Part shown: positions 14,006 through 41,800 of the stretch, piece by piece | Numbering within the stretch: position 1 is the first letter of the stretch | Layout: each line of letters begins with the position of its first letter | NCBI RefSeq assembly: GCF_035594765.1 | Contig: NC_085846.1 | Location: 13,069,190 to 13,133,189, forward strand | From: Anolis carolinensis | Taxonomy: Eukaryota | Direction of reading: 5' to 3' | Length of the DNA: 64,000 bases | The notes under the pieces: model-generated | The model's input: only the letters and a program-made list of their open reading frames with translations | What the model was told of the DNA's origin: nothing | Databases searched by the model: none | Translations under genes and position numbers: made by a program

Positions 14006-17000
14006 TTTTACCCAAACAATAAAATGTTTTTCAAACAATATTAACGGTCTGAACTCGCCATCCAAAAGGAAAAGACTATTTAGTAAATTATGGAAAGAAA
14101 AATATAATATTACAGCCCTACAGGAGACACACATAGCAAAAAAACATGTAAAATATTTGATAAATGACCCTTTAGGACAGGTATATTACTCCTCGGATAT
14201 TAAGAAAAAAAGAGGAGTTGCACTATATATAGACACCAAATTTAAGTCGTTGGAAAAATTCAAGGACAATGAAGGAAGAGTTATAGGGGTAATGATAGAG
14301 ATTGGAGATGAGAAAATCCTTCTATGTAATATATACGCTCCAAACGGTCCAAAAACGAAATTTATAAAATTTGTTTGGGAAAATATCAACCAGATAGATT
14401 TCGATCATATGATTTTCGGAGATTACAATGGGGTGCTAGACAATAAATTAGACAAAACCTATAATCAAAAGAGGAAAAAAGAATTCAGTACCCTGCAAAA
14501 AATGTTCATAAGATTTAAGGAAGAATTTGACCTGAAAGACACATGGAGGGAACTTAATCCTAATCAAAAAGACTATACCCATCTCTCTAGCAGACATCAT
14601 CAATGGTCAAGAATCGACATGATTTGGGTGACCAAAACATTGTTAACTAAAATAGACAAAATTAAAATATTATCAAGAGACCTTTCGGACCACTGCCCAC
14701 TTGTTATGGTAATAAATCATAAAAACCATAAGAGAAAATGGAGACTAAATGATAATTTAATAAAATTAGAGAAAGATATAGATAGAATAAAAATTAAATC
14801 AAAGGAATTTTTTAAATTAAATGATACCCCTGAGGTGAGCCCACAGATAATCTGGGATGCCTATAAAGCTGTAATTAGAGGAGATTTAATTCAATTAAGC
14901 GCAAGTAAAAATAAAAGAAGGAACCAAGAAATAAACGAGTTGGTTAAACAAATTGATTCAGAAGAAAAGAAACTTAAACAAAATCCCAAAAACCAATTGA
15001 CGAAAAGGAAATTAGAATTATTAAAAAAACAAAAAAATACTTGGGAAATAGAGAGACTAGCCAATCGGTTGAAATGGGCGAAACAACAAATGTTCGAAAA
15101 TGCCAATAAGCCAGGTAGGTGGCTGGCTCGAATGATAAGAAAGAGGAAACAAAATAAACACATAGCTAAAATAAAGGTAGGAGATAGAGAGATAATTAAA
15201 GACGAGGAAATAAAGGAGGAATTTAAAATCTTCTATAAAAATTTGTACTCAAAGGATCCCATAGGCCAGGAAAACATTGTAAAGTACTTAGGAGAACAAA
15301 AGCTACCAAAAATAACGGAAGACCAGAGACTTGGACTAAATAAGGAAATTACAGAGGAGGAAATAAAAAAAGCAATAAAAGATCTTAAAGTAAATAAATC
15401 ACCAGGCCCAGATGGCTTCACCGGAGAATTTTATAAAACAGTACAAGAGGAAATAATACAATATTTGAAAAAAATAATGAATCAGGCGCTAAACTTGAAA
15501 AAAATCCCTGAATCTTGGAAGGAGGCTGAAATAATTATGATACACAAGGAAGGAACAGAAGCACAAGAGATCAGCAACTATCGGCCTATATCCTTACTCA
15601 ATATAGATTATAAAATTTACACAAAAGTTCTGGCAAATAGATTTAAAGAGTTTTTAAACGATTGGATTTCCGAGGACCAAACGGGATTTTTGAAAAACAG
15701 AAGTACAAAAGATAACGTAAGAATCATATTGGATATAATAGAATATTATGAATCAAACCCTCAAAAAGAGTTAGGACTTGTCTCAATAGACGCCGAGAAG
15801 GCATTTGACAACCTAAATTGGGAATTTTTCAAACTACTGTTACAAGAAATAGATATAGGGTGGCAATTTCAAAACGCTATTAACGCTATCTATGACAAAC
15901 AAAAAGCCAGAGTTAGTATTAATGGCCTGACATCAGAAGAATTCCACATCGAAAAAGGAACTAGACAAGGCTGTCCTTTATCTCCGCTGTTATTTATTTT
16001 TGCCCTAGAAATACTACTTAAAGCCATAAAAAATGATAAAAACTTACATGGGACAAAATTGGATAAACAAGAAATAAAAATAAGAGCCTTTGCAGATGAT
16101 ATAATCTGTATAGTAGAAGACCCACAAAGAGAGTTAAACAATTGGCTAGGAAAAATTGAGGAATTCGGCAAAGTGGCAGGTTTCAAATTAAATAAAAGGA
16201 AAACAAAAATTTTAACCAAGAACATGACTAAGAAAAAACAAGAAAATCTACATAAAATCTCAGGACTAGAAATAGCAACAAAAATTAAATATCTGGGGAT
16301 CTGGATCTCTGCAAAGAACAACCAACTCCTGGAACTAAATTACTTAGCCAAATGGAAAGAAATAAAAAAAGACCTCGAAAATGGGCAAAATCTAAATTTA
16401 TCATTACTAGGGCGAATAGCGGTAATCAAAATGAACATACTTCCTAAATTATTATATCTTTTTCAAAATGTCCCAATTATAAGAAATACAAAAATATTCA
16501 AAGATTGGAATAAAGATATATCCAAATTTATTTGGAAGAATAGAAAACCTCGAATCAAATACTCAATTATGATCACTCCCAAACTAAAAGGCGGTTTCGG
16601 TCTCCTTGATCTAAGATTATATTACGAGGCCTGTTCTTTGGAGTGGGTGAAAGAATGGGTAACCCTTAAAAAAGAAAAAATACTTACCATAGAGGGATTT
16701 GATTTAAGAAGGGGGTGGCATGGATATATGTGGTATGATATGATGAAAGTAGAAAAAAATTTTGGAAACCATTTTATTCGCTCAGCCCTGTTAAAAGTTT
16801 AGATTAAATATAAAAATTATTTCTACACAAAAACCCCATTGTGGCTATCTCCCCTTGAGGCAAACCAAAGAAGGCTCTTAGGCTGGACAATCTGGCCAAC
16901 ATACAAGGAGATCCTGGGCGGATTAAATAACAGAGATGAAGAGCCCTTTGTAAAAAGCATGGAAGAGATACAAAAGAATTATAAAAACGTCTCGTGGTTT

Positions 17001-17691
17001 CAATATATTCAAATTAAGGAATTCTATAAAAAAGATAGACAAGTAGGGTTCAATCAAGAAAGTGGCTTTTGGGACAAATTCCTGCAAGTGAAGGAGAAAA
17101 GTATAACTATCCTCTATAAAAAGTTATTAGACTGGGTTACCGAAAGAGAAGAAGTCACTAAATCAATGATACAATGGGCCAAAAATATAGGGAGGCCTAT
17201 AAACATAAAGGAGAATTGGTTAAAAATAGTACACAGGTGGTACTTGACACCAAAAAAATTGAACTTAATGTATAAAAATGTTAGTAATAAATGTTGGAAA
17301 TGCAAAGACCAAGTGGGCTCCTACCTACATATGTGGTGGTAAAAAAAATGAAAAGTTTTGGAAAACAATACACTCAGAATGTAATAAGATTCTTAAACTA
17401 AAAATGATCTTTAAACCAGAACTCCTCCTGTTAGGGTTGTATGATTCTGAAATTAAAATGGAGACAAATAAAGATAAACTTTTTACTTATTTTATAACGG
17501 CAGTGAGGATAATTTTGGCGAAACACTGGAAATCGGAAGAACCCCCCACAAAAGACCAATGGTTAAATAAAATTATAGAAATAAGAGATATGGACATTTT
17601 AACTTTTTGGATGAAGAGTAACTCCGGTAAGGCCATGAAAAGAACAAACTGGGAAGATTTCGACGAGTATCTCAAAAAAGAATATGATTGA
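13998..17691 (+). pseudogene. L1 ORF2p (APE endonuclease, reverse transcriptase, C-terminal Cys-rich region), disrupted
   Basis: NINGLN, LQETH, GDYN and SDH endonuclease motifs; [12 protein letters not shown] and YLG RT motifs; CWKC..H. In-frame TAG at 16800-16802 and a frameshift/stop at ~17340. Confidence 0.92.
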
Positions 17692-21174: not shown

Positions 21175-21469
21175 ACTTAAAACATCTTACAACACATAAA
21201 GCAAATGTATTTTAATAGTAAATAGACTCAATAACAGATTTATGAATCCCTCCCTCATAAATTCAAGAAGATAGGAAACTGTTCTCATTGGTCCATTTCT
21301 CCCAATATTGTCAGTTCTGATTTACAGCCACTTGACAGAATTACAGGCTAGATTCTTTCCAAACAGTAGCGATCTCCAGGCCTGATCTTGTTTACTTCCT
21401 CAAGACATTGAAGACTGGGATTTTTACGGTGGTACTATTGAACTGACTTCTCTTTCCACCTTTTGCCAG

Positions 21470-21941
21470 ATGGATATCCAGCGATCCCTTGAGCTGCTGC
21501 ACATGACCGTCTACTCCCAGAGCGTCTCGCCTTGTGGGAAGTATTTAGCGGCAGGGAATAACTATGGAGAAATTGCCATATTCAGGTAACTAGGCCTCTC
21601 TTAACACAAAGGGTGTTTTTGGAGTGAGACATTAATTTGAAATTATTTCAAGTTACATTTCACGGTCTTTCCCTGCTCTTTACAGTCTTTCAGCAGCACT
21701 AAGTTCAGAGGCCAAGGAAGAGAGCAAGAAGCCAGTGGTCTCCTTTACAGGTAGATATATTTTTTTAATTTTATTGAAAAACGTATAAGTGATAAACATA
21801 CATACCACTGTGCGAAAAGTATAGAACGATAACATGAATACACACACACACACACATATATATATATAGAAGAAATAAAGGAAGAGGGGGAAAAAACATG
21901 AAAAAGGTAAAAAACGAAAGAAAGAAAGAAAGAGAAAGGAA

Positions 21942-21990
<49 letters not shown>

Positions 21991-22893
21991 TAAAAAAATT
22001 AGGGCCTAAATTCTCCCTATGGACTTAACATCTATACATAAACAATACAATCACAGGTAGATAATTATGGTCAAGTGAATCTAAGCAATTCCCGTTATTG
22101 TGTTGTCAAAGGCTTTCATGGCCAGAATCACTGGGTTGCTGTGAGTTTTCGAGGCTGTATCATCATGTTCCAGAAGCATTCTTTCCTGACGTTTCACCCA
22201 CATCTGTGGCAGGCATCACGAGAGGTTGTGAGGTATATTGGAAACTTAGCAAGGGAGGTTTATATATCTGTGGAAGCTAGGTCTTGAAGATGCAAGGCTT
22301 TTCTATGCTAATCAAGGTGATTGATTGCAACATTCACACTTGCCTCCAACAGATGAGTTCTTTCTCCCATCTTGGACTTTCCACAGATATATCAACCCCA
22401 CTTGCCTAGTTTCCAACAGACCTCACAAACTCTGGGGTTGCCTGCCATAGATGTGGGTGAAATGTCAGGAGAGAATGCTTCCGGAACATGGCCATACAGC
22501 CCATAAAACTCACAGTAACCTAATTCCCGTCATTTTTGTGACTGTTAAAATTCATTTTATGTGGCCATCGAGATACTGGACTACGACTCCTATGTTCCTC
22601 ATTATTAGTCATCATGACTAGAGCCAATGGGAGTTCTGATACAGTCACACCTGAGAGGCTGCAGTTTATTCTGTTTAGTCAGTGGAATGTGGTTTGAATT
22701 TAGATACAATGCTTGTAGATATGATGTCTCCCTTGAAACTGTCCTTTAACTTTTCCTCAGCTTCAAAGCCACAAGTGCTATTGGATTGCAATTATCATTA
22801 TCCCGAGTCCGTACCATGAATGATCAATGTGCTTGTTGGCATTGAATATTTGCCTTTGATGTTGTTAGCCATATTGGGAAATGGGGCCAGGAT

Positions 22894-22937
<44 letters not shown>

Positions 22938-25688
22938 CAACAACAACAAAGTGATTGGAATTGTCGTTAAATAATTTTGGGGGACCCTAAAGAGTCCTGA
23001 GACCATTATGTAAGAAAAATCTGTTGGCCCTCAGTATCCACACACTTTCTGTCCATGGATTCAACAGCCCATTGAAGGCAACCATAAGGCTGATGTGGTC
23101 CTGTATGAAAATGAGTTTGACATTCTGGATTAGGTACACAGAATCCCTGTAAAAGTGGAAAAACTACATATATATATACCTCATCAGCCTTACGATGGCA
23201 CTCTAAGAATCTCTAGGTCCTCCAGTGTGACTCTATGGTCAATTTCTGGCAAAAGTTTCCTAGTTATTTACCAATAAACTGATCTTGTAGTAATCAAAAC
23301 TTCAAAAGCCAAATCCACAGATATGGCCGACTGTTTATTTTTTCCAGTTTTCCATTTATAGCACAGCAAAGCATTTTTCTTTTTAAATCATATCCCAAAG
23401 CCTGGTGTCAGGTTATGTCATTGAACAAATACATAGAAGACTCAGTGTGTTTGGGATTGACATTATTTTCCTTGCAACCCTAATTTCAATAGTTTAGAGC
23501 TAAAAAGAGACACATGGGTCCAGGAGAATACTTTGCTTTTTCTGTTTCACATCAGAGAGTATACTTCATTATGGGAGTCCCCAATTCTGAGGAATGCAGA
23601 TTTTTGGTGATTGTTCATGGTAATCTGAGGATATCCCTTGAGTCATCTCAGGATGTTATTAAGTCCACCTTAAACCCCACTTTTTATTTCTGTAGCCCAC
23701 GATGGTCCCATCTATGCCATGGTTTCCACAGACCGACAGCTATTAAGTGCTGGCAACGGTGAAGTCAAGGCTTGGAACTGGAGTGAAATTGTGAAGAAGG
23801 TAAGGAAGGGTTGCCTGACAGTCACCTTACTATACAGGGTGTTTGAAAAAGAACTCCCTATTCAACATTTAATTTAAATGGTGAATAGGGAATTCTTTTT
23901 CAAACACCCTGTATTTCTCATGATCTATGTTGTTGTTTCATAACATCTATTTTCTGTGTAACTAGGGCTGCAAAGAAGCCTGGAGTAGAAGGCCTCCTTA
24001 TGGGTATAATTTACTTTCTTCCTTCAGTTTTCCTTATCGCCTTTTCCTTCCTTTTACAGACATCCCAATGCAATATTCCTCTTTCATTTTCTTTTCAGGA
24101 GCAGCCTAGAAGTGCCAGAAATCAACAGCCTTCAACTGAACCTCAAGGTAATAACCACAGTGGTGCAGTGTGGGAAGTTTCAAATGTGGTTCATTCAACT
24201 ACCTCACATCCAGAATTGCTTTCCTTTTTTAGGACAATAGTCTTCTAATGGCTGGTGGAGACTGTTCTATTCACATGATGGATCTCGAATCTGGAAGCTT
24301 TACTGTGAGTATTTGGAGCCTAAGATGAACAATTTGTGGGGAAGATGGTCAATATCTCTTAATTTTTGCACAAACTCAAACTGATCTAATCTTTTGTTAC
24401 TAAATCTGGATAAAAGGGTCTAGCCTGTCAACCTTCTCAGCAGATAATGAATTTTTGTGTCCATTTACTTTTCTTCCAAACTCACAAACTTAAAACTTAT
24501 TTTGAAAAACCCTACATTCTTAGAGTTTCGGTTTGCAACAATGATATAGTATCGTAATACAGTAAGACCCCTGAAATCATGGCACCCATACTAGCGGTTT
24601 CACATACCCAGACCTGGGGAAAAATGTTCTCTAGAAATTTTTCAGGTTCTCTAGATCAGAGCTTCTTACACTTTTTCTTCTGGTGACCTCTTTCTGCCCA
24701 AGAAATTTTTACGTGACCCCAGATACATAGGTACATAATGTAAAATAGTTATTAAAAAGTCAAACATTTGCTGATAATAAATCAGTATTTGCAAGACTTA
24801 CTAAACAGGCTGTTTCTCCTTTTTGTGCATTATGGCCAAAGCATTTTCCACAGAGTCCATTGTAAACACTGTACTTCGTTGCTAACAGATTTGTGTAAAT
24901 GACTGGCATCAGAAACTTTTTTACTGTTGCCAATTTTTTTCACAACCCCAACATTGAGCTAAGGGGACCCCATTTGGAGTTGGGGTGCACAGTTCAAGTA
25001 GTGACTGGTATGCTTCTTTTGGAAGTTTCCATAAAGCTGAGAGAAATTCTTAGAGAAGGATGCCTTTGTTGCAATGTCTAGGTCCTCTGATGGAAGTATT
25101 TTTGGACCTGAAGTCGGGTAATTAATGGTGTTTGATTATTGTATCTTTGGTTTCATCTAAGTATGGTATAACCCGGAATGTATCTCACATATATATGAGG
25201 GTCTTACTATACAAGAACCTTCCCCAGAAAGGGAAGTGCTATGTTACAACTATTTTCTCAGTCAACACTGAGCACCTCCATGTAGTTCTGTTTTATACCT
25301 CATTTTTCAGGTTCAAAAAAACCTTAGTATTTCCACAATTCCATTGCAGATATTACTGTACATATTTTGCTCAAGATATAGTACAATACAGTGGTTCTAT
25401 TTGCTCCCCTCCCTTCCTGTTAGTCTTCTCTGTTGACTTCCTGGAAACGTTTAGTACTTTGAACATATGTAATGACTGTTTACAAGATAACAATTCTAGA
25501 TGGGATGGTATAACTAATTGTTGCTTCTAGATAATTTTAAGGCAAAATTTCTCCCGTTTCAAACTTATTTGAAGCCCTGCGTCTATAATTGTGCCTTTTT
25601 CTTTTTAAATAATCTGTAGATATGGTTCCCAGGACTGTATGGAATTGTATTGCTTTTTTTCCTCCTGAACATCATTGCCAGTTTAGAC

Positions 25689-25744
<56 letters not shown>

Positions 25745-28700
25745 CAACAACAACTTTATTTATAACCCGCTTCCATCTCCCCGAGGGGGGAGCGGTTCAC
25801 ATGGGGACATTTCTGCTAAATGAAAAGCTTTTGTAATCCACTTTTCTTCTGTTGGTATTTGTAAATTTTCCCCAAGCTTGGGGCATATAATATTATCTGC
25901 CTGACGATCATATATTGTAATGTTTTTGCGTTTATTGATTTCACTTGTTCATTTTGTAGTCTTAGTAAAATTAGTTCAGGGTTTAATTGTGTGGCTTAGA
26001 AAAAAAATGTAGTTTTTGTATCAAATTCCAAAACTGTTTTGATTTAGATCAGGTCTACCTAGTTCTGTTTTCTGACACCCAAGTGTTATATCCATGAACC
26101 GTTTGTTTAATCAGCCCCACTGCTGGCATGGTGGGTTTTAATTACCTCTGCTCTGTCTTGCGCACAGCATGAATTTCAGGGTCACAGCGATTACATCCAC
26201 TGCCTGGCTCTTCGAGAGCAGCTCCGGGAGTGTTTGTCAGGGAGCGAGGATGGCACTGTGAGGCTTTGGGGTAAGGACCTGTGGTTTGGGGTTCCTTTCC
26301 AGTCTTCCACCAGCTTCTTAGTTACTTGCTTTTGTATCTTGGGAAGTTTGTCTTCAAATGTATATGCTTCCAGCTCCTTTAGAATCAGCTACAGAGGTTG
26401 TAGTACACTTTCCTAAAGAATTCCTTAAATCTAGATTCTATCTAGGCAGAACCTTATCAGTGGTGGCCCCAGTAGATGCAGTCCCCAAGTTACAAACATC
26501 TGACTTGCAAATGACTCATAGTTAAGAACGGTGGTGAGACAACAGGAAGTGAGAGAAATCTACCCCTAGGAAGGGAAATTCACTCCTGAAAGAGTTATTA
26601 TGGGGGAAAGGAGTCTCTACTGAAGTTTTATCTCCAATCCTTGTTTCCACAACAAGCCAAAATTTTCAATGATCACAGGGACAGAAAGTGAGATGAAATC
26701 TTCTGAACAGGGGCACAGACTGCAAAACAAACACCACAGGGGTGTTAACCCTTGTCTATGCTATCCAAAGCTAGCTGTGTGTATGCGTGTGTGTATGTAT
26801 GTACGTACATATGTACATATATACATACATGGCTGTAGTTACACTTAAAAACATACCTGTTCTGACTTACATAGAAATTCAACTTAAGAACAAATCTACA
26901 GAACCTATCTTGTTCATAACTTGCATTGCCTGCATTGTGGAACCAGCTTTTTAACTGAACACAGAGCCTGAAAAAAAAATCTTTTTTGGATTACAGCCGG
27001 CCATGATGGCTACATAATTCTAGGAGTTGAGGAACAATTTTTTTTCTCATAACTGAAAAGACTGCCAAAGCTGAACATGCAGGAATTTAGGAAGATAATG
27101 AAAGAAATGAGCCTTTAATCTAATCTGTCATTTTCCATTATCTGGTAATTGCCAGATTACCAGTGTACACCTACACTTACTAATTTTACTTTTTAAGAAT
27201 TGTGATTTAGATTTAACATTTACTTTATTGTATGAAGGAACTAACTAAGCCCACTTCCAAGTAGTCCTTGCCTTAAAACCTTCTGAAATTAATGAGGTCA
27301 TCATAAATGGGCACAGAGACAGACAGACAGATGCTTTGAAATGTATTAAGAAATGGGATATTTATTCTACAAACATGAATTTGTTTCCAGAATGTTTGGG
27401 GGCAAACAAGTGCAACATATGCCACAATTACACATTTATTAATTGCTTTATAAAATACTTCCTAATTTTCTTTGGTCCATATGCTAGAATTGTGACAATG
27501 GCAAGCTGTACAGTTGGAAAGAGGAAGAAGGTTTTGAGTGCTTTTATTGATGGGAAGATTGAGACTATTTAAATAAATATATTACATTTCTGTTTTTCAG
27601 ATTTACGTACTGGAAATCAAGTCCAGTCCATTGAGGTGCATAAATATGAGGTACGATTATTCTCCTCCATCTTCCTGCAACTCAAGAGATTTGTTCATCC
27701 TCGCTATTTTTAATTCTGCACCTGTCCATCTGCTTCCATATTTTCAATTATTTATGAAATAATCTTTTAACATGCAATTGCTGCTACTAAAAGAGAATGA
27801 GAGGAGTATGCAATTCACCCAAAGTTTAATTATTTCACATATGTAACTTCACATTTTACCGAAACAACACAAGCCTTCAGGGGAAATGGAGCATTACTCA
27901 TTTCTGATCAGGGTCTTCATGCGTTGGGCTTGACATCCTAGCATAACCAATCAGGGAGCCAATTTCCTCTGGGCATTTTCCCTTAACACTCATCTCAACT
28001 CCCTTAGGAATGTAACCGGCCGCAGAATGGGAAGTGGATCCGTTGCTTGGCAACAGACTCCGACTGGATGGTAAGTGTGCCTGATTTCTGTCAATGAGCG
28101 AGAATTGCAAGACATCCCACAGTGCACTGGGCTAGCGGTCACCCATCCTGGTTGCTCAGTTACTGGGCTTGAGTAGCCTCGTGGGCTCAGCCAGCATCAC
28201 TAACCTTCATGCCTCCTCCTTTGGAGAACCTTGTTCTGCCTGTGCTTTTCTGAAATTGATGTTCAAGGCAAGGAGCTGGAGAAGTACACAGACTCAGAAA
28301 TGAGGGCAGCAGGGGATTGTGAATTGTCTGTAGAACAAGCAAAAGAATTGAGGAGACAATATGTGTCATCAAAAGATTTTAGGCTCCCTTTGGTTCCCAA
28401 TCTCCATTTTCCTTCCTATAGGTGTGTGGTGGGGGGCCAGCGCTCACTCTGTGGCACTTGCGGTCAGTTACACCTACAACGATATTTCCCTTGCCCCAAT
28501 GCCAGCAGCAAGTCATGTTTTACCAGGACCTGGTAAGTCTTCTTCCTCTGGACTAAAGATCTATAGCAGGCAGGCTGTTAGGAATTGTGGAAGTTGAAGT
28601 CCAAAACCCCTGGAGGGCTGAAGTTTGCCCAAGCCTGATCTATAGTGTCCCTTCTTTCTCGGCCTCATTCCTCACTGCCCTTTCGTCTTTTAATTCCTGA

Positions 28701-29867
28701 ATTGCTCCCACTCTTGCTTCTTTGGATTTTCAAGGGGACATGCAGCATTTTTCCCTACTCCTACTCTCTGAAAAGGGACTTTTTTTTTACTTCAACTGGC
28801 TATGCCATTTGGTGTAGTCCAAAGTGTAGCTTTTCCAAGCTCTGCCCTTCTCACTCTTTCATGCTTGGAATTGCCTTTTACTTGCTCGTATCTCACCTAT
28901 ATTTGCAGTAATTATCTCTCCCCCACCCCCCGCACCTAAATATGTTTCTCTCAGATCCTTTCTGCTGGCCACAGCCCAACCATCAACCATTTACAGATCA
29001 GCGGGGAAGTGAAGGCCCAAATCCCTTGCATGCTGCATTGCGTCCACTCTCTTTCCATCAATGAACAATCGCCAGAGCACAAGGTACCTTATAAATTGGA
29101 AATTGTATGTAAAAAAGTCGTACTACATCCTGTTAGTGGCATACGCACATACATGCATGACATTTTGTTGGTTTTGCAGAGGTTAGTATTCCCTCCCTCC
29201 ATAGTATCCAAAGCATCTTTCTTAGACTTGCTGTAGAACATTGAAGCCCTGTCTTGCAGGGCTATTCTATGGCTTATGCAGATTAGGCAGGGTTTGAGAT
29301 GTCTGGCTGTGTTCCCGTAGCCAGAAGAGAGATGATCACATCACTGCTGAGGTCTACTGAGTACACCAGTTTCAGTTTGTTGCAGTCATTTCTTGTCTAG
29401 CTACAGAGGCATAATCAGGCACCTCTCCAGTTTTCCTTACTCCTCCTCTTTGGATGGAATGGTAATTTCAGGGTCCATACAAAGCATCCAGAGGTGTGGT
29501 AAATGGTTCAGGGTGCATAGGTTTGCATGTGGAACAACGGTGCCAGTGACTCATACAGGATTGCAGCCATAGTGTCCTCTAAAAAGAAGGAGGCTTCTGT
29601 GAATTTTGAATCTTCTTGGTGGTGTTCAATGCAATTTTGAACAATCATTCTGAAAAATGTGAATTTGGAATTGGAAGTGAGAGATGTCGAAGATTTGAAA
29701 GAAGAGGGATGGCCCTGGGGCAGTGGAAGGGGCTTCAGGAGTCTTCAACCCATTGAAAAATTTCTTGCTCTCTCCATCCCCAGGTCCTGACCGCTGCCGG
29801 AAGCAGCCACTGCATTGATGTCTTTACTAACTTCGGTTATCGGGCCTTTTCCCTTGTCTTCACCTAG
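21470..29867 (+). CDS. THOC6: THO complex subunit 6 (WD40), 327 aa from the ATG at 21470
   Basis: Exons 21470-21585, 21686-21750, 23696-23799, 23966-24003, 24099-24147, 24233-24304, 26168-26270, 27601-27650, 28008-28070, 28422-28532, 28955-29083 and 29784-29867; all GT-AG and in frame. Peptides [61 protein letters not shown] and [13 protein letters not shown] few N-terminal codons might come from an upstream exon. Confidence 0.97.
22098..22520. mobile_element. Penelope-type terminal repeat, inverted pair
   Basis: tgtgttgtc.aaggctttcatggcc...ggcaggcatc followed by its inverted copy. Same family at 38580-38810, 42132-42650, 47250-47643, 49158-49647 and 55483-56279. Confidence 0.6.
23835..23911. 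mobile_element. 77-bp Tc1/mariner-type MITE (hairpin)
   Basis: TA-CAGGGTGTTTGAAAAAGAA...TTCTTTTTCAAACACCCTG-TA; TA TSD; almost entirely inverted repeat. Confidence 0.75.
26477..26932. mobile_element. Tigger/Tc1-mariner-like non-autonomous element; second copy at ~32840-33235
   Basis: Two dispersed homologous copies starting (ca)gtcccc.agttacaaa and ending ttgttcataa. Confidence 0.55.
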
Positions 29868-30864: not shown

Positions 30865-33800
30865 CTAAGCTTCTCCTGCCTCGGACATTTCCACACTCTC
30901 ATACATATGTCCATCCTCCATTCTTTTCAGTTCCTTCAGATCTTCCTTATGTTCTTCCTTGAACATCCGAAGGGCTGCCATCATTTCTTCATAGGCACCA
31001 TCATGTTGTGGCTCAGAATCGGGCATCAGGTATTGCATGGTATTGGTCAGCATCACTTCGGCCTCACAGCAGAGGGCCTCCAAGCCTAAAGGCCTGTAGA
31101 TGGCATTGCCGGATTTGTAGCACCTGCTGAAGAGGTTGACAGATACCAAGAAGTAGTGAGGGAGGTTCCCCTTGTTGAGGGTGTGGATTAGGAGCCTTAG
31201 GAGGGTCTGGATTGAGGACAGGAGAGTCTCCCATTGTGACGTCTGAGGATAGATTTCACAGCACCACAACAGAATGGTCTACAAGAGAAGAAGAAATGTT
31301 AGATAGACATGATAGTCATTAATTGTGGTCTATAGCTCATGAGTCCCAAAGACAGAGACCATCAAGGGACACCTAGTACCAAATAGGTAGCACCTCCCCC
31401 CCCCCCCCCAAAAAAAATCTATATACCTATCATCTGAAATGATGGTATATAGCATTTTTAGAATTTTTGCTTTCATCACCCCCAGGATTCCTAGTGATAT
31501 TGTTTACTCAGCAAGCGTACCTTGAGGTGGTAGGAAGTCAGGATGCTGCCATATTCTGGTGTCCATCTTGTCATGTTGATAAACTTCAGCACCCGCAGAG
31601 CTGCCCCTCTGTGTCCCCCATCTGCATCAATATCTTCGAGAAGCTGAGTTTCCGCTCGGCTAAAACAGAGCCTAACACCAGGTCGAGACTATAAGAATGT
31701 GGCATTTACAATCAGCTAATATAGTTTAAGAAAAGTCAAACAGCACATGTTTGACTGCTATGAAGCCAATTCCCAGCGTTTTCAGTGGGGCTAACTTCTG
31801 AGTAAGTGTGCAAACGACTAGAGCACAAAGAAATATTTACACAGTAGAATAAATGTGGTTTGCAACCACTTTAACTACCATGTCTCAATGCTATGAATTA
31901 CTGGAATTGTAGTTGATTTTAGAGTGCTGACACCTCCCCAAACTACAACTCCTAGGATTCCATAGAATTGAGAAATGACAGTTTAAATGGTGTTAAATTG
32001 CATTGATTCTACAGAGTAGGTGTACCCTAAGACCTGAAGTGACTGCTGAATGAATTCAAACTACAATGAAAGAGATTCTACCTAAACATTAGGTAAACTT
32101 AATGGTGAAAGCTTTTTGGCAAAGGAATATGCTGCCTTGGAAGGTGGTGGGGGTCTCCTTTTCTGAAAGTTTCTAAGCAAAGGCTGCATGGCCATATGTC
32201 AGGAGTGCTTTAATTATATGTTCCTACGTGGCAGAACAGGGTTGGACTGGATGGCTCTCGTGGTCTCTTATGAGTCCACTTAAAATTTCTCATCTTAAGA
32301 ATATGAAAATCTGCTTTGAAATGGAATCCCTTTTAATTTTCAAGAGTAAAACTCAGGAAGTGCTCCAGCTCAGTCAGTCAGCTTTGGATTTTGAAATCAT
32401 TTCTGGATTTGTGACGATTAGATTTATTTTCTTACCTCCAAAATCCTCCTTTGGAGACCAGCTCCGGCCCAACTTCTCGGACCACTCTGGCTTTCCGGAG
32501 GAAGTTGGCCCTTTCATTGGTCAGGTCTCCGTCCCACCAGTCGGAAAGGTGGGCGAGGTCCTCCCGTAACCACTGGTTGGAGAGCTTGAAGGCCCCCAGG
32601 ACGGCAGGCACCAACCTCACTGGGACATTGTCACAGCCATCATTGAAGGTCAGTTGGATGGCTGGACCATCCAGATCCAAGGCCTCCAGTCTGAAACCTC
32701 CTATCAGAGCATAAAGAAAAGAGATGTTATTCTAGGAATACGTATGTTGCTAATTTAATATGCCCTTAATTTTGTTACAGTGTTTTTCCAGGTGGAAATG
32801 CTAAAGGTGCTACTCGACTTCTAGAAAATAATATAGTGTACTGGAAGTCCCCGAGTTACAAATCCCCGACTTACAAACGACTCGTAGTTAAGAATGAAGT
32901 GAGACAACAGGAAGTGAGAGAAATCTACCTCTAGGAAGGGAAATTGAGTCTTGAAAGAGTTCTTATGGCGAAAAAGTGTCTCAAGTAAAGCTTTATCACC
33001 AATCCTTTCCACAAGCCAATTCAAACAAGCCAAGTCAAAATCTAATTAACACAGACAGAAAATGAGGGAATCTTCTGAACAGGGGCACAGACAGCAAAAC
33101 TCCACAGCGTGTTAACCCTTTCCTATGCTACCCATATATATATCTGGAGTTGCATTTAAGAAATGTACCCTTTCCGACTCACAAACGAATGCAACTTAAA
33201 AACAAACTTATGGAACCTATCTTGTTCATAATGAGGGAGGGCGGGCAAATGAAGGAGGGCGGCAAAGACTGGGTCAACTGGCTTCTATGATTTTCTTTCC
33301 TCTCTCCACTGAATAACCCTCAATTTATCCATTAGTCACATCAAAAACTCATAATTTTGGCCAAAAAAACCTGCCCGTGATATCTGATCTTTGAGGAAGG
33401 CACCTGACAACAGCTACCTGTTGTCAAAGTTTGAACGATTTAACCCCCCAAAATAAATAAGTTCACCTCTTATGTGATGGTCTATCTTGGGAACTCGGGA
33501 AGGGAAGAGTCTTCGCTGGAACACTGGGTCTAGGTTGGAAAAGGCAGAAAGAAATTGCTGCATTAATTTAAGCAAAGAGTTATGAATGGTGCAGAATCTC
33601 AGAATGGGAAATAACTGGAAAATAGCATTGCTTATTTAATTTTCTTTGAACTCACCATTTTGCCGAGGATGGGTATATGCTGGCAAAATGGGAAGAAAAA
33701 CAAGAGAAAACGAGTTAAGAAAAAAACCGTCGAAGGAAACAGCTGTCCATCGTTTTTTTCCTGCCATGATTTCTGAACATTTAAGAGCTACATATTAAGA

Positions 33801-36800
33801 AAGTAATGTTTTAAAAAATATAGCATTCCCCCTTAATGGCAAAAAAAGAGAAACTCTTAATTTTACACCCCTTTAATTGCCATAGCTCACTGCTATGGCA
33901 TCCTGGGAGTTGGAGTTTTGCAAGTTCTTTAGCCTTATCTGCCAAAGAGCACTGATGTCTCACCAAACTACAACTCACAAGATTCCATAGCACTGAACCA
34001 TGGCAATTAAAGTGGTTTCAAACCACATTCATACAACAATGCATATGCACCCCTTTGCTCAGTATCTAAGTTAAACTTTCAGAACAAGGGTGACAACCTG
34101 CATTTCCCTAGAAGGGCCACATGTTTTCTCACTTTAAGCAATAAATACCAGGAAGTCTGAAGTATCCCAGTCACCAGATAGTGAAACTTCTATGTCTGAG
34201 GATTATGGGGAGATGCTACTCTGCTGTGTGAACCCTACCTGGATCCAAGGCAGTTTGAACACAACGGTGCAAATCCTTCAAGATTTGTTTAGGTTCTAGG
34301 TTGTGGTGACTTAGGCTCTCCTGTGAAAAAAAAAGGGAAGAAGGTTGTTGAGTCCTCAAGAACTGAGCTTGGACATCAAACTGCATTCATTCTACCGTGT
34401 AAATGCACCCATTGTTTCCATTTGCATTGTTTTATATTTATTGGCACCAGTATTCCTTGGCAGGGAAGGTGAAAGACCTTATAAAACTACAGCTTCTATG
34501 AATCCATAGGCCTTAACCATGGTGCTTAAAGCGGTGTCCAACTATATTCATTCTACAGTGAGGATGTACTGGGCTTTGCACAGTGGGCTAAATTGCTGTG
34601 CTGCAGCAAATCCTGACAATCGAAAGGTCAGCAGCTCAAGCCCGAGTTGGGGTGAGCATCTGCCATCAGCCCCAGCCCACCTGCCCACCTAGCAGATTGA
34701 AAGCAGAAATGTGAGTAGATAAATAGGTACCGAGCCCAGGTCAGGGTAAGCACCTGCCATCAGCCTCAGCTCACCTGCCCACCTAGCAGATCGAAAGCTG
34801 AAATGTGAGTAGATAAATAGGAACCAAGCCCGGGTCAGGGTAAGCACCTGCCATCAGCCTCAGCTCACCTGCCCACCTAGCAGATTGAAAGCTGAAATGT
34901 GAGTAGATAAATAGGTACCGAGCCCGGGTCAGGGTAAGCACCTGCCATCAGCCTCAGCTCACCTGCCCACCTAGCAGATCGAAAGCTGAAATGTTAGTAG
35001 ATAAATAGGAACCAAGCCCGGGTCAGGGTAAGCACCTGCCATCAGCCTCAGCTCACCTGCCCACCTAGCAGATCGAAAGCTGAAATGTGAGTAGATAAAT
35101 AGGTACCAAGCCCGGGTCAGGGTAAGCACCTGCCATCAGCCTCAGCTCACCTGCCCACCTAGCAGATCAAAAGCTGAAATGTGCGTAGATAAATAGGTAC
35201 CAAGCCCGAGTCAGGGTAAGCACCTGCCATCAGCCTCAGCTCACCTGCCCACCTAGCAGATCGAAAGCTGAAATGTGAGTAGATAAATAGGTACCGAGCC
35301 CGGGTCAGGGTAAGCTCCTGCCATCAGCCTCAGCTCACCTGCCCACCTAGCAGATCAAAAGCTGAAATGTGAGTAGAGAAATAGGTACCGAGCCCGGGTC
35401 AGGGTAAGCACCTGCCATCAGCCTCAGCTCACCAGCCCACCTAGCAGATCGAAAGCTGAAATGTGAGCAGATAAATAGGTACCGCTTTTAGCGAGGAGGT
35501 AAGAGAAGGCATGCTCCTCTGCATGGATGATGGAGTGATAGCACCCCCCCCCCTCCAAATGGCCAGAGTTGAGCACAGTCTTCAAGATTCTAGAAATAAG
35601 ATTGGAAATGCCTTTACCTCTCTTTGTGTATTGTCTGTCCTTGTAAATTGTATAATGGCATTGAATGTTTGCTGTATGTTTGTTCTGCGTAAGCCACTCT
35701 GAATCCCCTTCGAGGTGAGAAGGGCAGGGTATAAATACTGTAAATAAATAAATACCCATTGTTTTAATTTGCATTGCTTTCTACGAATGGTGGACTGCCT
35801 TGAGTTCTGATATTGGCAGGGAAGGACCTTGTGAAACACCAATTGTTTAAACTGGCAATTTTTCCTATTTATAAAAATGAAGAAAATACAACCCAAATAA
35901 GTAAACAAAGTACAAAAACATGAAAATAAATCAAATAATAATGTAAAAATAAATACAAATAAAGGACATAAAGTAAAAATAAACAAAAATAAATTTGAAA
36001 TAAACAAGGGAAAGGTAAAGGTTTCCCCCGACATTAAGTCTAGTTGTGTCCGACTCTGGGAGTTGGTTCTCATCTCCATTTCTAAGCTAATTTACATATG
36101 TTTTAATTGTTATAATGTATTTTAATGATGTATTTTTATAGTTTTAATTGATTATGTGTACTGTTTTTGTTTTATTATTATGTTATTGGCATTAAATGTT
36201 GCCAACTGTTGTAAGCCGCCCTGAGTCCCCCCCGGGTGAGAAGGGTGGGGTATAAATGCTGGAAATAAATAAATAAATACATAAGCTGAAGAATCGGTGT
36301 CGTCCGTAGACACCTCCAAGGTCATGTGGCTGGCATGACTGCATGGAGTGCCGTTACCTTCCCACTGGAGCGGTACCTATTGATCTACTCACATTTGCAT
36401 GTTTTAGAACTGCTAGGTTGGCAGAAGCTGGGGTTAATAGCAGGAGCTCAATCCACTCCCTGGATTCAAACCGCTAACCTTTTGGTCAGCAAGTTCAGCA
36501 GCTCAGTGGTTTAACCCGCTGTGCCACCGGGGCAGAAAAAATAAGCAAAAGTAAATTTTAATTTTTTAAAAAGGAAATAAAGTTTAAATTAATAAAAATA
36601 TTAAATAAAGTAAAAATTAATAAAAATGAAACAAAGTAAAACATTAAAAATTACGCAAAAAAGTAACAATAAATTTAAAATAAACAAGAATAAAGTATAA
36701 CTAAAAAGGAAATAAAAATAAGGTAACAAAATAAAAATACATTATAAATTCATAAAAACAAAGCCAATAAAGTAAAATAAGTAAAAAAATAAAGGAAATC

Positions 36801-37295
36801 AATGCGAGCCCCCACTTCTAGTTCCTCCAACTTGTCCAAGTCCGTCTCGTCGTCTTCGTCCTCCCGGCGCGCCTCCTGCCGATGGCAGTGGATCTCCACG
36901 TAGATCTCGGCCAGCGCCTCCAGATCCAGCAGGGCTTGGGAGCCCCAGCGATGGAGGGGCAGCCCCTCCTCGCGGAAGATGTAGGTGGGCAGCGCCTGCT
37001 TGCACCGCGGAGGCGCCTCGGCCAGCCCTCCGCTCACCGGCGCCAGCTGCGGGTTGTATCTCACCGGGAGGAGGAAGTCGAAACCTGCGGAACTCCCTGC
37101 CGCTTGAAGGTGCAGCCCTTCGCCGTAGCTGCCGACCGGGACGGGCTCCCCGGGGAAGAGCCCCGTGCTGGCTTCGTAGGCCCACTGGGACACCTTCCCC
37201 AGGGCGCTTTTGGCCAGGAGAAAAGCCCGCCCCGTCCGCCAGGCCTCGTCCCCCGCCAGGAAGACCCGCTCCGTGTAAAAGCGCTCCAGGCTCAT
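30865..37295 (-). CDS. Mab-21/cGAS-like nucleotidyltransferase-fold protein, 484 aa (MAB21L3-like C-lobe; probable pseudoenzyme)
   Basis: Exons 37295-36816 (phase 0), 34320-34239 (phase 1), 33529-33467 (phase 1), 32700-32436 (phase 2), 31671-31521 (phase 0) and 31278-30865, totalling 1455 nt with no stops. Family motifs in order: GSYGEGL..GFDFLLPV, LEPKQILKDL, GPAIQL..VRLVPAV, WRLCFSRAETQLL..DGGHR, LTSYHLKTILLWCCE.YP...W, LPHYF..VNLF. Confidence 0.9.
34640..35483 (+). repeat. Minisatellite of ~9 x 94-bp units derived from an internal Sauria-SINE-like segment
   Basis: The unit marker tcagggtaag recurs at 34741, 34835, 34929, 35023, 35117, 35211, 35305 and 35399 (period 94), after a diverged first unit. 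The unit contains acctagcag..gaaa..aatgtgagtagat.aataggtacc, as in the SINEs of this window. Confidence 0.9.
36008..36532 (-). mobile_element. Sauria SINE split by an L2-like 3' fragment (~36090-36282)
   Basis: The SINE tail half and head half flank a tgtaagccgccctgagtc..(aaat)n insert. Confidence 0.7.
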
Positions 37296-37353
37296 CGCTT
37301 CGGGCCTAGGCTTCGCGGATGAGGCAATTCCTCGGCTCTCCTTTTCCGTCACA

Positions 37354-37370
37354 GCTTTCGCTTTCGCTTT
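37354..37370 (-). promoter_or_regulatory. Tandem IRF-binding element/ISRE upstream of the Mab-21 gene
   Basis: The minus strand reads AAAGCGAAAGCGAAAGC, matching the IRF-E consensus GAAA(G/C)(T/C)GAAA(G/C)(T/C), ~60 bp upstream of the ATG of a CpG-rich first exon. Confidence 0.6.
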
Positions 37371-37733
37371 GGGACCATTCCTGCCCGATGGATTGGAGGA
37401 ACTTAGATATCAGGCCTGGGCAAACTTAGGCCCTCCAGGTGTTTTGGACTCCAACTCCCACCATTCCTAACAGGCCCCTTCCTTTCCCCCCTCACCTGCT
37501 CACTGCCTCTCCCTTAACCCTTTCCTAAGGCGCACAAAGGCATTGATCAGCAGCTGGATAGACTGGAGAGGGTTGGGGAACGGACTCAGCAGGATGGAAG
37601 TTGTAGTTCCCCCTGCATCAAGACACAGTACTGTGACCCCCACCCACAATGGGCCTGGACCACCCGTGGCACACAGAACCCCGATGACCAGGTTTTTGGG
37701 GGAATTGACCTTGATTTATTGATTCACCTACAT

Positions 37734-38054
37734 GCCCCCCAATGGCGCAGTGTGTTAAAGCACCTAGCTGCTAAACTTGGGGACCGAAAAGTCACAGGTT
37801 CAAATCCGGGGAGCAGAGTGAGTGCTCACTGTTAGCCCCATCTTCTGCCAACCTAGCAGTTCGAAAACATGTAAATGTGAGTAGATCAATAGGTCCAGCG
37901 GGAAGGTAACAGCGCTCCATGCAGTCATGCCAGCCACATGACCTTGGAGGTGTCTATGGACAATGCCAGCTCTTCAGCTTAGAAATGGAGATGAGCGCCA
38001 ACCCCCAGAGTCGAACACAACTAGACTTAATGTCAGGAGAAAACCTTTATCTTT
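37734..38054 (+). mobile_element. Sauria SINE
   Basis: Full head-to-(acctt) tail similarity with the other copies. Confidence 0.8.
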
Positions 38055-38845
38055 AATATCCAGAAGGCTCCAGTTCGTTCTGCTTAGTAAGGAGAGTGGG
38101 GTGTGAATTTAGATACAAGGCTTGTGCATATAAAACTCCTTTTCCCCAACCTCACATCTGCAAGTGCTGTTGGGCTGCAACTCACATTATCCCCAGTGTG
38201 CCTCCTGGATACTCAAAAGTGATGGGAGTTGCCATTCAGTAACATCAGGGGACCTCATCTTGTCCCTTGATAAAAGAATTCTGGCCATATTTTGTTACAG
38301 CGCTCAGACAGCGCAATGGTAATTGTAGGTAGCACTTCCAACCATGAGATGGCACCGTTGTATTTCCATTCGGAATATAATCTGAAATGCTGAAAGGATA
38401 AATGTTTATCAACAAAATAAGAATGGAATGAAGTTTAATCAAAAAATCAATGGAACACAGGTGCAAACCACCCTGTTGTTGCTTCCAATAATTCCATTCA
38501 TTAGTAATTTTTTCTTTTCCATAGTCCCATCCCAGATCCAACGTAAAGATTACACAACACAACTAGAGGTGAACATTGGGTGTGTTGTTGAAGGCTTTCA
38601 TGGCCTGAATCACAGCATTGTTGTGTGTTTTCCGGGCTGTATGGCCATGTTCAGAAGTATTCTCTCTTGATGTTTCACCCACATCTATGGCAGGCATCCT
38701 CAGAGGTTATATACCTCACAACCTCTGAGGATACCTGCCATAGATGTGGGTGAAACATCAGGAGAGAATATTTCTGGAACATGGCCAAACAGCCCGGAAA
38801 ACACACCACGATTCAGCATTGGGTGTGTTTATTGATTTCTGTCCT

Positions 38846-41800
38846 CTATGTGGTGATGATTGCAGATGGCTCTGTGGAAAGGGAGGATTGATTCCCGGCC
38901 CCAATCTCTGGGTCTTGGTCCCAGTGGAACCCGAGAGCGTTGACCAAAGACCCCGAGCGCCCGCTGATGAAGCGCAGGACCGTGTTGGGGAACATCGGCT
39001 CAGCTTCGAAGCCCATCCCGGGACCAAAGTTGGGCCCGAAGGCAAAGACGCGCCCCAGGTTGGTCCGGAACGCAAGGTACTCCACGTAGTTCCCAAAACG
39101 CCCCGTGACTTGGATAAATCCCTCTCCGTGGTACAGCTCCATGCCAGACGGGTTGCCCGCCGTACTCCCTTCGGTGACAGACCATGAGTCTCCATAGCGG
39201 ACCTGAATGCTGCAATGAGTAGAGAGAGAAGGTGTCGGCATGAGTCTCTTTAGTGTGACTATGGTGAAATTCCACCAAAACTGACCATAAAATTGTATCC
39301 TCTCTAAGCATCTCTAGGTCCTCTTGCATGCCACTATGGTCAGCATCCAGTGCAAGTTTACCCTAGAATTATACTACAAGGTATAAGGATTCATAGAGAA
39401 AACATTTTAATCCAAGCTGTGAATAATCAGATCTGTAACCGTCAAACCCGCAAATGTGGACAGCTGTACGTTTTGTTTGATGCAGCTGCTCAAGGGCCTC
39501 GGATGGTTCAGTGCTATGAAATCACAGAAGCTGTGCTTTTACAAGATCTTTAGCCTTCACTGCCTAAGAATGCTGGTGCCACAGCAAACTACAGGACTCC
39601 ATAGCATTGCGCCATGGCAATCAAAAGTGTCAAACTGCATCAAGTCTAAAGTCTAGACGTACCTTAAGTAGCAATCATGAATGTGGAAGAGTTCTGGTCA
39701 ACTTAACTAAGGCCCCTTCTACACTGCCAGATAATACACATTATCTGCTTTGAACTGATTTATATGAGTTTACACTGCCATATAATCCCATTCAAAACAA
39801 ATGATCTGGATTATTTTAGTCCCCTTCTACACTGCCATATAAAATCCAGATTATCTGCTTTGAACTGGATTATATGGCAGTGTAGACTCATACAATCCAG
39901 TTCAAATCAGATAATGTGGATCATCTGCTCTGCTGATCTGGATTATATGGCAGAGTAGATCCAGCCTAAGTAGCTAATGTAGAATATTAATTATGTTTTG
40001 CAGATTTCAGGTGCTTGATGCACCTCTCTGGTCCTCAAGGTGAATGGGAACGAATCTCAGGGTGAGAGCACTCCTTTGAAAAGTGTAGGTGATCTTCATT
40101 TGTTAGACTTTTTCTTTTACTTGCATGTCTGTTGATGCTTAATGTGTGATGCTTAACCGCAGTGCTAAGGTCTGATCCTTAAAACATCACCCTTGCTAAC
40201 ATCTCTATGTCCCACCACTTGTGGCAAGTGATGACTGACATATTGTCTGTCTGTCTGTCTGTCTATCTCATTTCTTTGCTGCCTTTCTCCCAAAATGAGA
40301 CCCAACACTGCTCCTAGACACAGGCAATTTAAAATATATTCACAATGAAATCAAATAGCAATGAAAACCAGCACAGCATATAATCATTTTCAAGACTAAC
40401 AGCAGTTTTAAAAGATAAAACACTAATAAAATGCTCCCCCAACACTTTAAAAGCCTGCTTAAACACACAATTTTGGCATTGAATCCTCAGGGTCTCTGAC
40501 AGTCCCTTCCTGGCAATCCTTGTCTCTAAAGATATACATACCTTAAGAGGTACCTGTCATTTGCTCTTATTTTTAGGGCAGTCACGGGGCCATCCAGTTC
40601 ATTATTCGAATGGTCAAAATATTCTCCACTGTCACCACCAAATTCTCCAGAGAAAGAGGCAAGCCTTGCCAGGGCTGGATCCATACAAAAAGATGCGTGA
40701 AAGGTGTAATAAATAAATAATAATAATACATGATAATACACTTATTTATATTCCTCAGAGGAACTCAGAGCAGATTACAGAACACATATGAGGCAAACAT
40801 TCAATGCCCTTTACACAGCGACATACAATACACATAGAGAGGTAAAGATCTTCCTCTTCTTTCATCTTACGGTCTTACCTTTTATGTGTTTTTAATGTAA
40901 TTTTTATCCTGTATTGTTGTTTTAATTGATATATTGCATTACTGTTTTATCTGTTTTATATTGTGATTGTATTATGTTGCTTATATTTTGTTCTTATGTT
41001 GTTTGGGCCTCTGCCCCATGTAAGTCGCCCCGAGTCCCCACGGGGAGATGGTGGTGGGGTATAAATAAAGTTTATTTTATTTTATTATTATTATTATTCA
41101 GCATCTGGAGGCGATGCTCAACTTCTGGCCATGGGGAGGTGCTTTTGTTCTGTTTTCCCATGCTTAGGAGCCAGAGGTTCTGTGAAATGGTGGGAAATCA
41201 AAAGTTTTTGCTGCCAGCTGCTTACGTCCACCTCACATAACACAAATAATGACCAAATGGGGAATAAAGCTGGAGAGAAATTGAGGATCGGAGAGACGAA
41301 AGAGCTGGGCTGTTACAGTGGAAGTGGTCAGCTGGCAGGAAAAAAAAGTTTTGATTTTTGAAGATTTCAAACAAGGGAGGCTTAGTGGGATTATAAATAA
41401 TAATAATCTTTTGAAAGCTAAATAATTACACTAAGCATTCCAGTACACAATAAATGGAGATTATATTATTAGTATGCAGTTCCCCCACCCTTTCAGTCTG
41501 GGAGCCAGATCTGGCTCTTCTGTTAATTGTTCTGTTTTGGCACCCTCCAGAACTTTGATCTGTTGTGCTTTAATTATCGGGATTATGGGATTCCTGCAGG
41601 AAGTTCAATCTTGGCAGCTAACAAAAGACAAAGAAGCTTAGAAGTTAGGGGATAATTATCATCTGAGATATTAGAATTTTCAATAATTTAATCCAAGACA
41701 TGCAGTATAGTCAAAACCGCAGTCGTCTGCTGCCTTTTAATGGGATTCAGGTTGCCGTGTTATAACCTGCTCCAAAAGCTATTTTATTAAAATAAGCCTG

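What the first reader, a model, noticed from the sequence alone, without database searches (positions are those of the whole stretch)
37354..37370. Triple GAAA-type IRF/ISRE element immediately upstream of the Mab-21 gene
Seen: AAAGCGAAAGCGAAAGC (minus strand) lies 59-75 bp before the ATG at 37295. A short out-of-frame upstream ATG (37378; MVPKRKRKL*) overlaps it. Established knowledge: GAAANNGAAA repeats close to the TSS are the signature of interferon-stimulated genes bound by ISGF3/IRF1. Inference: the gene is an ISG.
Basis: partly seen in the sequence, partly recalled or inferred. Interest (0 to 1): 0.7.

Follow-up and report, generated by a model that had tools for sequence, protein, structure and literature searches.

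The report
Interferon switch on reptile cGAS relative
A lizard gene shaped like the virus sensor cGAS, but missing the residues that sensor needs for catalysis, carries a rare interferon-factor binding motif where its RNA begins, so it is likely switched on by the interferon system; induction and the protein's job are untested.

Summary
The 17-mer AAAGCGAAAGCGAAAGC is at 37370-37354 (minus strand), 59-75 bp before the ATG. It has two full GAAA cores plus an AAA half-site. It fits the IRF1/IRF2-type element but not the detailed ISGF3 consensus. The gene is Anolis LOC103280824: seven exons, 492 aa, cGAS fold (Z 27), two of three catalytic acids lost, in a squamate-turtle clade. Six RNA contigs begin at 37325-37366, so the motif lies at the start site and the upstream ATG is probably not transcribed. 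Twelve other non-satellite loci in the genome carry a CpG-containing triple motif. Six are at gene 5' ends: two GBP genes, MHC class I, TIFA and two non-immune genes. Four of five squamate orthologues with annotated upstream read-throughs show motif-compatible peptides at the same place in two reading frames (p about 0.002), which points to conservation at DNA level. Orthologous DNA and induction could not be tested. Verdict: probably a real IRF element (about 0.85) and probably interferon-responsive (about 0.68). The element is an ordinary kind; the gene it controls is the interesting part.

The parts
37354..37370 (-). IRF-type element: AAA half-site plus two GAAAGC cores (GC-TTT-CGC-TTT-CGC-TTT on the + strand)
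   Evidence: exact 17-mer at 4 loci in the genome
37349..37378 (-). Short out-of-frame ORF MVPKRKRKL*; the motif read in another frame, probably upstream of the start site
   Evidence: no RNA contig end beyond 37366 in 6 runs
37325..37366 (-). Spread of RNA contig 5' ends (37325, 37326, 37326, 37334, 37348, 37366); inferred start zone
   Evidence: weak hint, a variant at 37327 may cut three of them
37392..37396 (-). CCAAT match upstream of the element
   Evidence: consensus match only
37337..37351 (-). TGACG half-site and a further GAAA core (GAAAAGGAGA) just downstream of the element
   Evidence: consensus match only
37409..38250 (.). Interspersed repeats that bound the unique promoter DNA to about 110 bp; the element lies outside them
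36816..37295 (-). Exon 1 coding part, in a CpG island; GS motif and G71-F-D73 (first catalytic acid lost)
34239..34320 (-). Exon 2
33656..33679 (-). Exon 3 (24 nt)
33467..33529 (-). Exon 4
32436..32700 (-). Exon 5; R245 in place of the third catalytic acid
31521..31671 (-). Exon 6
30865..31278 (-). Exon 7 coding part (Mab-21_C domain, stop); the 3' UTR runs on past 30000

Best explanation
The 17-mer is likely a working IRF-binding element at the start site of a reptile gene with a cGAS-like fold, and likely makes that gene respond to interferon or virus. Shown: the motif, its place in about 110 bp of unique TATA-less DNA at the edge of a CpG island, RNA contig ends at or just below it, the spliced gene, and the lost catalytic acids. 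Inferred: IRF1/IRF2-type dimers bind the GAAAGC cores, with the AAA half-site adding affinity. They would keep a basal level and raise transcription when interferon or virus sensing raises IRF1 or activates IRF3/7. ISGF3 may contribute but fits less well. The product would be an interferon-responsive, probably inactive nucleotidyltransferase-fold protein acting by binding rather than by making cyclic dinucleotides.
For: Strict triple motif: 1 match in the window, 0 of 100 shuffles. On the + strand it reads GC-TTT-CGC-TTT-CG, close to human STAT1 (AG-TTT-CGC-TTT-CC), TAP1 (GA-TTT-CGC-TTT-CC) and OAS3 (GC-TTT-CAG-TTT-CG) sites tabulated in PMC5985295. 6 of 6 contig 5' ends from two studies fall at 37325-37366. 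Of 12 other non-satellite loci with a CpG-containing triple motif, 6 are at gene 5' ends: 2 GBP, MHC class I, TIFA, and 2 non-immune genes. Both lizard Mx genes have ISRE-like sites in CpG-rich patches upstream. 4 of 5 squamate orthologue read-throughs carry a motif-compatible peptide 34-38 residues before the conserved F-Y/H, in two frames; null 1-2% per 20 residues, p 0.0017 against residue shuffles without a position window. The element is outside the flanking repeats.
Against: No induction or binding data. No orthologous DNA was seen. A peptide alone implies the strict motif with only 2-6% probability under a neutral codon prior. Vipera fits only loosely and the one turtle read-through not at all. 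The motif fails the detailed ISGF3 consensus. Triple motifs are common outside promoters: 338 matches in the genome, and 0 of 27 CpG-free ones examined lay in CpG islands; 89 of the 102 CpG-containing matches were in satellites or doubled hits. CpG-island enrichment over a permuted control was not significant (6 of 12 vs 2 of 12, p 0.19). Two of six 5'-end loci are non-immune. Contig ends are weak evidence for a start site, and the DNA control run did not cover the stretch. The lizard's own cGAS CpG island has no such motif.
Confidence: 0.68

Rival explanations
1. The site is bound (by IRF2, basal IRF1 or BLIMP1) but only sets basal transcription of a TATA-less promoter; the gene is not notably inducible.
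For: Spliced transcripts are present in several runs of two studies. The same motif class sits at the 5' ends of a HEAT-repeat gene (DOHH-like) and a RING gene (BFAR-like), names recalled. IRF1 keeps constitutive expression of many genes (PMC7819612 passages). BLIMP1 binds GCG-type sites that overlap IRF elements (PMC2938208 passages).
Against: 3 of the 6 other 5'-end loci are GBP or MHC class I genes, classic interferon targets (GBP per PMC5985295; MHC class I recalled). Basal and induced control often share one site.
Confidence: 0.17
2. A neutral (AAAGCG)n microsatellite that arose by slippage and happens to lie near the start.
For: It is a perfect hexamer repeat. 2 of the 3 other exact 17-mer loci are a simple repeat and a satellite. 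Large satellites are built of such hexamers.
Against: It sits at the start zone in a 110-bp unique stretch. Orthologue peptides imply different spacers (KVKA, KVKV, ESES, QSES) at the same place, as expected of a selected site rather than one repeat.
Confidence: 0.1
3. The repeat is there for coding reasons: an in-frame KAKAKA extension of the protein, or the basic upstream peptide MVPKRKRKL acting as a translational brake.
For: The main frame is open back to 37409 and reads KAKAKA. Podarcis and an unnamed Logan protein show KVKA and KVKV in the same frame.
Against: No in-frame ATG and no upstream exon. Both Anolis species are annotated from the same Met. Only 4 of 24 aligned proteins have long extensions, and lizard and snake extensions do not align. 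Gecko and boa show the motif in another frame. No contig reaches 37378.
Confidence: 0.05

Closest known systems
IRF-E / ISRE proximal promoters of GBP, MHC class I, STAT1, TAP1
   Same: Tandem GAAA cores with 2-bp spacing at a TATA-less start. The CGC linker matches human STAT1 and TAP1 sites. The identical hexamer run lies upstream of a lizard GBP gene.
   Different: No GAS or kappaB match within 37291-37700. No GAAACT end. The promoter is only about 110 bp of unique DNA. Nothing is tested functionally.
cGAS (MB21D1) and cGAS-like receptors
   Same: Fold: AlphaFold model pLDDT 87; Z 27.2, rmsd 3.1 A over 324 residues to mouse cGAS. cGAS itself rose after viral mimics in crocodile cells (log2 2.2 and 2.9, supplement rows of PMC5702629).
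   Different: About 17-20% identity. The first and third catalytic acids are G71 and R245. The protein is net acidic (52 K+R, 73 D+E), with long inserts. The lizard has a separate cGAS-like locus on contig C1 (name recalled from sequence).
MAB21L1/2/3, MB21D2, TMEM102, MiD49/51 (other vertebrate Mab-21 proteins)
   Same: Mab-21_C and weak Mab-21 Pfam hits; nearest Atlas clusters are Mab-21, TMEM102 and MID49 types. MiD49/51 are known inactive members (recalled).
   Different: Forms its own squamate-turtle clade (SH-aLRT 100), apart from Anolis MAB21L1/2. cGAS, MB21D2, MAB21L3, TMEM102 and MiD proteins were not in that tree.

Membership tests
ISRE / IRF element | Core GAAANNGAAA | tested here: met
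   GAAAGCGAAA at 37365-37356; definition from PMC6954429 passage
ISRE / IRF element | IRF1/IRF2-type consensus AAA(G/C)(T/C)GAAA(G/C)(T/C) (consensus recalled, not from a call) | tested here: met
   two overlapping matches, 37370-37360 and 37364-37354
ISGF3 site | Detailed consensus WBVGGAAANNGAAACT or GAAANNGAAACT end | tested here: not met
   ends GAAAGC; functional ISREs with other flanks exist, e.g. OAS3
ISRE / IRF element | Proximal to the transcription start | tested here: inconclusive
   6 of 6 contig ends at 37325-37366, but contigs cannot map starts
ISRE / IRF element | Conserved in orthologous promoters | tested here: inconclusive
   peptide read-throughs only: 4 of 5 squamates, 0 of 1 turtle; no DNA available
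Interferon-stimulated gene | Induced by interferon; IRF binding needed | not testable with these tools
   no stimulated squamate data reachable; run conditions are not given
cGAS-like receptor (active) | cGAS/Mab-21 fold | tested here: met
cGAS-like receptor (active) | Motif h[QT]GS-X8-20-[DE]h[DE]h-X50-90-h[DE]h (PMC9980059 passage) | tested here: not met
   Anolis VGS, G-F-D-F, V-R-L, spacing 171; third acid missing in 19 of 19 squamates, first acid in 9 of 19 (by alignment)
cGAS-like receptor (active) | Nucleic-acid-triggered cyclic dinucleotide synthesis | not testable with these tools
   needs biochemistry

The most novel reading that the evidence does not exclude
Squamates keep an interferon-induced, catalytically dead cGAS-fold protein that acts as a decoy, cyclic-nucleotide binder or scaffold in antiviral signalling, while some turtle copies of the same reptile clade keep all three acids and may still be active receptors: a vertebrate cGAS-like branch missed by studies centred on mammals and birds.
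Probability: 0.2. Interest if true: 0.75.

Novelty: new member of a known kind. Interest (0 to 1): 0.45.

Why it matters
The element is a textbook kind. Its value is that it ties an uncharacterised reptile Mab-21 gene to the interferon system, whereas MAB21L1-type genes are developmental. If induction holds, it gives a testable vertebrate cGAS-fold pseudoenzyme in antiviral defence, with turtle copies that keep the acids as natural comparisons. Searches for the locus id and for pseudoenzyme/Mab-21/cGAS/reptiles found no papers; searches listed none on this gene. The library lacks most subscription journals.

Tried and rejected
The genome tool's built-in control (pattern read backwards) is a rotation of the same hexamer repeat, so its counts were not used as a null; a permuted pattern was run instead. 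A search for short exon-1 relatives found none. No RNA holder is listed as RNA on record; six runs were treated as RNA because their contigs are spliced or end at exon 1. Run X3 was dropped: its contig crosses the intron border and runs into the repeat unspliced. Run X16, meant as DNA control, did not cover the promoter. The first AlphaFold model (24 rows, pLDDT 50) was discarded for the 70-row one. Origin of the motif from a transposon was rejected: repeat matches begin at about 37400-37409. The crocodile viral-mimic supplement names only cGAS, MAB21L2 and DMRT2 under 'mab'; an unnamed LOC orthologue cannot be excluded. A search for TIFA as an IRF1 target gave nothing usable, so TIFA is counted as innate-immune, not as an ISG. 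No bird, mammal or crocodile protein appeared among named hits, but only 10 of the 150 listed profile hits were looked up, so absence is not shown. One search was uninformative.

Full report
Observation. The 17-mer lies at 37370-37354 on the minus strand, 59-75 bp before the ATG at 37295. The upstream ATG at 37378 gives MVPKRKRKL*. The first unit is CAAAGC, so the element is an AAA half-site plus two GAAAGC cores. The loose pattern GAAANNGAAA has 16 matches in the window and says little. The strict IRF-type double has 4 matches, two of them here, against 0.96 expected. The strict triple has 1 match, with 0 of 100 shuffles reaching it. The exact 17-mer has 6 matches at 4 loci in the 1.85-Gb genome.

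The gene. Exon 1 belongs to Anolis carolinensis LOC103280824, 492 aa. Contigs from three runs show six canonical introns. The seven exons sum to 1479 nt, or 492 codons plus stop (my count). It is single-copy by two exon searches. Of 24 homologues found, 21 are squamate, 1 is turtle and 2 are weak distant hits. A profile search added more turtle copies and weaker caecilian and lungfish relatives (10 of 150 hits looked up). In a quick tree of 41 rows, squamate and turtle proteins form one clade (SH-aLRT 100), apart from Anolis MAB21L1/2; cGAS and other named paralogues were not included. A model from a 70-row alignment (pLDDT 87, pTM 0.88) matches mouse cGAS at Z 27.2, rmsd 3.1 A over 324 residues. 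The active-site motif for cGAS-like receptors (PMC9980059, passages) is not met: Anolis has G71-F-D73 and R245. The third acid is missing in 19 of 19 squamates and present in 3 of 3 turtle and 3 of 3 lungfish or caecilian rows examined. The protein is net acidic. It is therefore probably a pseudoenzyme (inference).

Position. Unique DNA above the ATG runs only to about 37409; beyond that lie interspersed repeats to about 38250. Exon 1 is a CpG island; no TATA, GAS or kappaB match was found in 37291-37700. Exon-1 contigs of six runs from two studies end at 37325, 37326, 37326, 37334, 37348 and 37366. None reaches 37378 or splices upstream. Of 8 runs laid, X3 (unspliced) and X16 (no cover) were left out. 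Contigs cannot map starts, and a variant at 37327 may cut three of the ends, so this is a hint.

Company the motif keeps. Two searches for CpG-containing strict triples gave 102 matches. Setting aside three satellite arrays, 13 loci remain, this one included. Of the other 12, six are at gene 5' ends: two GBP genes, an MHC class I gene, TIFA, a HEAT-repeat gene and a RING gene (DOHH and BFAR by recall). Five were outside CpG-rich DNA and one was borderline; I did not scan these six for genes. Counting the GBP pair once, 2 of 5 are classic interferon targets; if about 5% of genes are (recalled), the chance of that is about 0.02 (hand arithmetic). Against this, a permuted control pattern had 2 of 12 loci in CpG-rich DNA versus 6 of 12, not significant (p 0.19). 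The full strict triple has 338 matches, and 0 of 27 CpG-free ones examined lay in CpG islands. As a positive control, both Mx-like genes have ISRE-like sites in CpG-rich patches 10 and 30 kb above their first recognised coding exon; their starts are unmapped. The lizard cGAS-like locus has none.

Conservation, indirectly. No other vertebrate genome was available. Some orthologue models read through the upstream DNA. Podarcis shows GKVKAEK, an unnamed Logan protein GKVKVE, Gekko ERESES, Candoia QSES and later ERKRES, Vipera KRKSERK. Four of these five fit the strict motif, 34-38 residues before the conserved F-Y/H (Anolis 24-26, with a shorter N-terminus), in two reading frames; one turtle read-through does not fit. 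Such peptides occur in 0.7-1.9% of 20-residue frames of lizard DNA. Against residue shuffles p is 0.0017 with no position window and 9e-6 with a window chosen after seeing the data. Different frames argue for a DNA-level site. The limit: each peptide alone implies the strict DNA motif with only 2-6% probability under a neutral prior, and the species are related. An unreviewed earlier AI note on another lizard genome reaches a similar reading; it is a lead, not support.

Which factor. The core meets the ISRE definition but not the detailed ISGF3 consensus ending GAAACT (PMC6954429, passages). It resembles listed human STAT1, TAP1 and OAS3 sites (PMC5985295, passages with Table 1). IRF1 also drives basal expression (PMC7819612, passages), and BLIMP1 binds GCG-type overlapping sites in a methylation-sensitive way (PMC2938208, passages). 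IRF1/IRF2-type binding is the best guess. PMC5702629 was seen as passages and supplement rows; other papers only as search listings.

Verdict. A functional IRF element is likely (about 0.85: inducible 0.68, basal only 0.17); a neutral repeat 0.10; a coding reason 0.05. The element is a new member of a known kind. What lifts it is the gene: an undescribed reptile cGAS-fold protein without its catalytic acids, probably under interferon control. Interest 0.45.

Noticed in passing
G000 C9:29.256-29.277 Mb; C17:12.888 Mb; C24:0.43 Mb: Tandem arrays packed with IRF-type triple hexamers (79 listed matches on C9, spacing often 71 bp; 14 and 10 matches in 9.9 kb on C17 and C24). Could act as IRF sinks or be neutral satellites.
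   Followed up: no
L093 (G000 C5:30.603 Mb): Triple IRF-type motif about 2.9 kb upstream of the TIFA coding exon, beside a splice donor on the other strand; possibly a two-way promoter shared with ALPK1 (recalled synteny, not found in 20 kb).
   Followed up: partly
L090 (C9:31.624 Mb) and L096 (C15:7.630 Mb): Triple IRF-type motifs at CpG-island 5' ends of a DOHH-like and a BFAR-like gene (names recalled), not known to me as interferon targets.
   Followed up: partly
P0057/P0206, P0059, P0056, P0207: Turtles have two branches of this family; Pelusios models join one of each in one protein. Three turtle proteins keep all three acids, while both Pelusios halves lack the third.
   Followed up: partly
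G000 C1:122.367-122.387 Mb: The lizard cGAS-like locus has no IRF-type or GAAANNGAAA match in its CpG islands; one GAAANNGAAA in 20 kb, in AT-rich DNA.
   Followed up: partly
window 34660-35490: Tandem array of about 60-65 bp units in intron 1, resembling pieces of a SINE.
   Followed up: no
window 2074-2376; 12899-17691; 21386-29000; 38846-40760: Neighbours: a Ras-family (Rab-like) exon, a LINE-1 copy with long ORFs, a WD40 gene (THOC6-like, recalled) on the + strand and a jacalin-domain gene (ZG16-like, recalled) on the minus strand ending about 1.5 kb above the promoter.
   Followed up: partly
G000 C3:80.63-80.69 Mb: Two Mx-like genes in tandem; three ISRE-like sites within 110 bp at 80,666,247-80,666,353.
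   Followed up: partly
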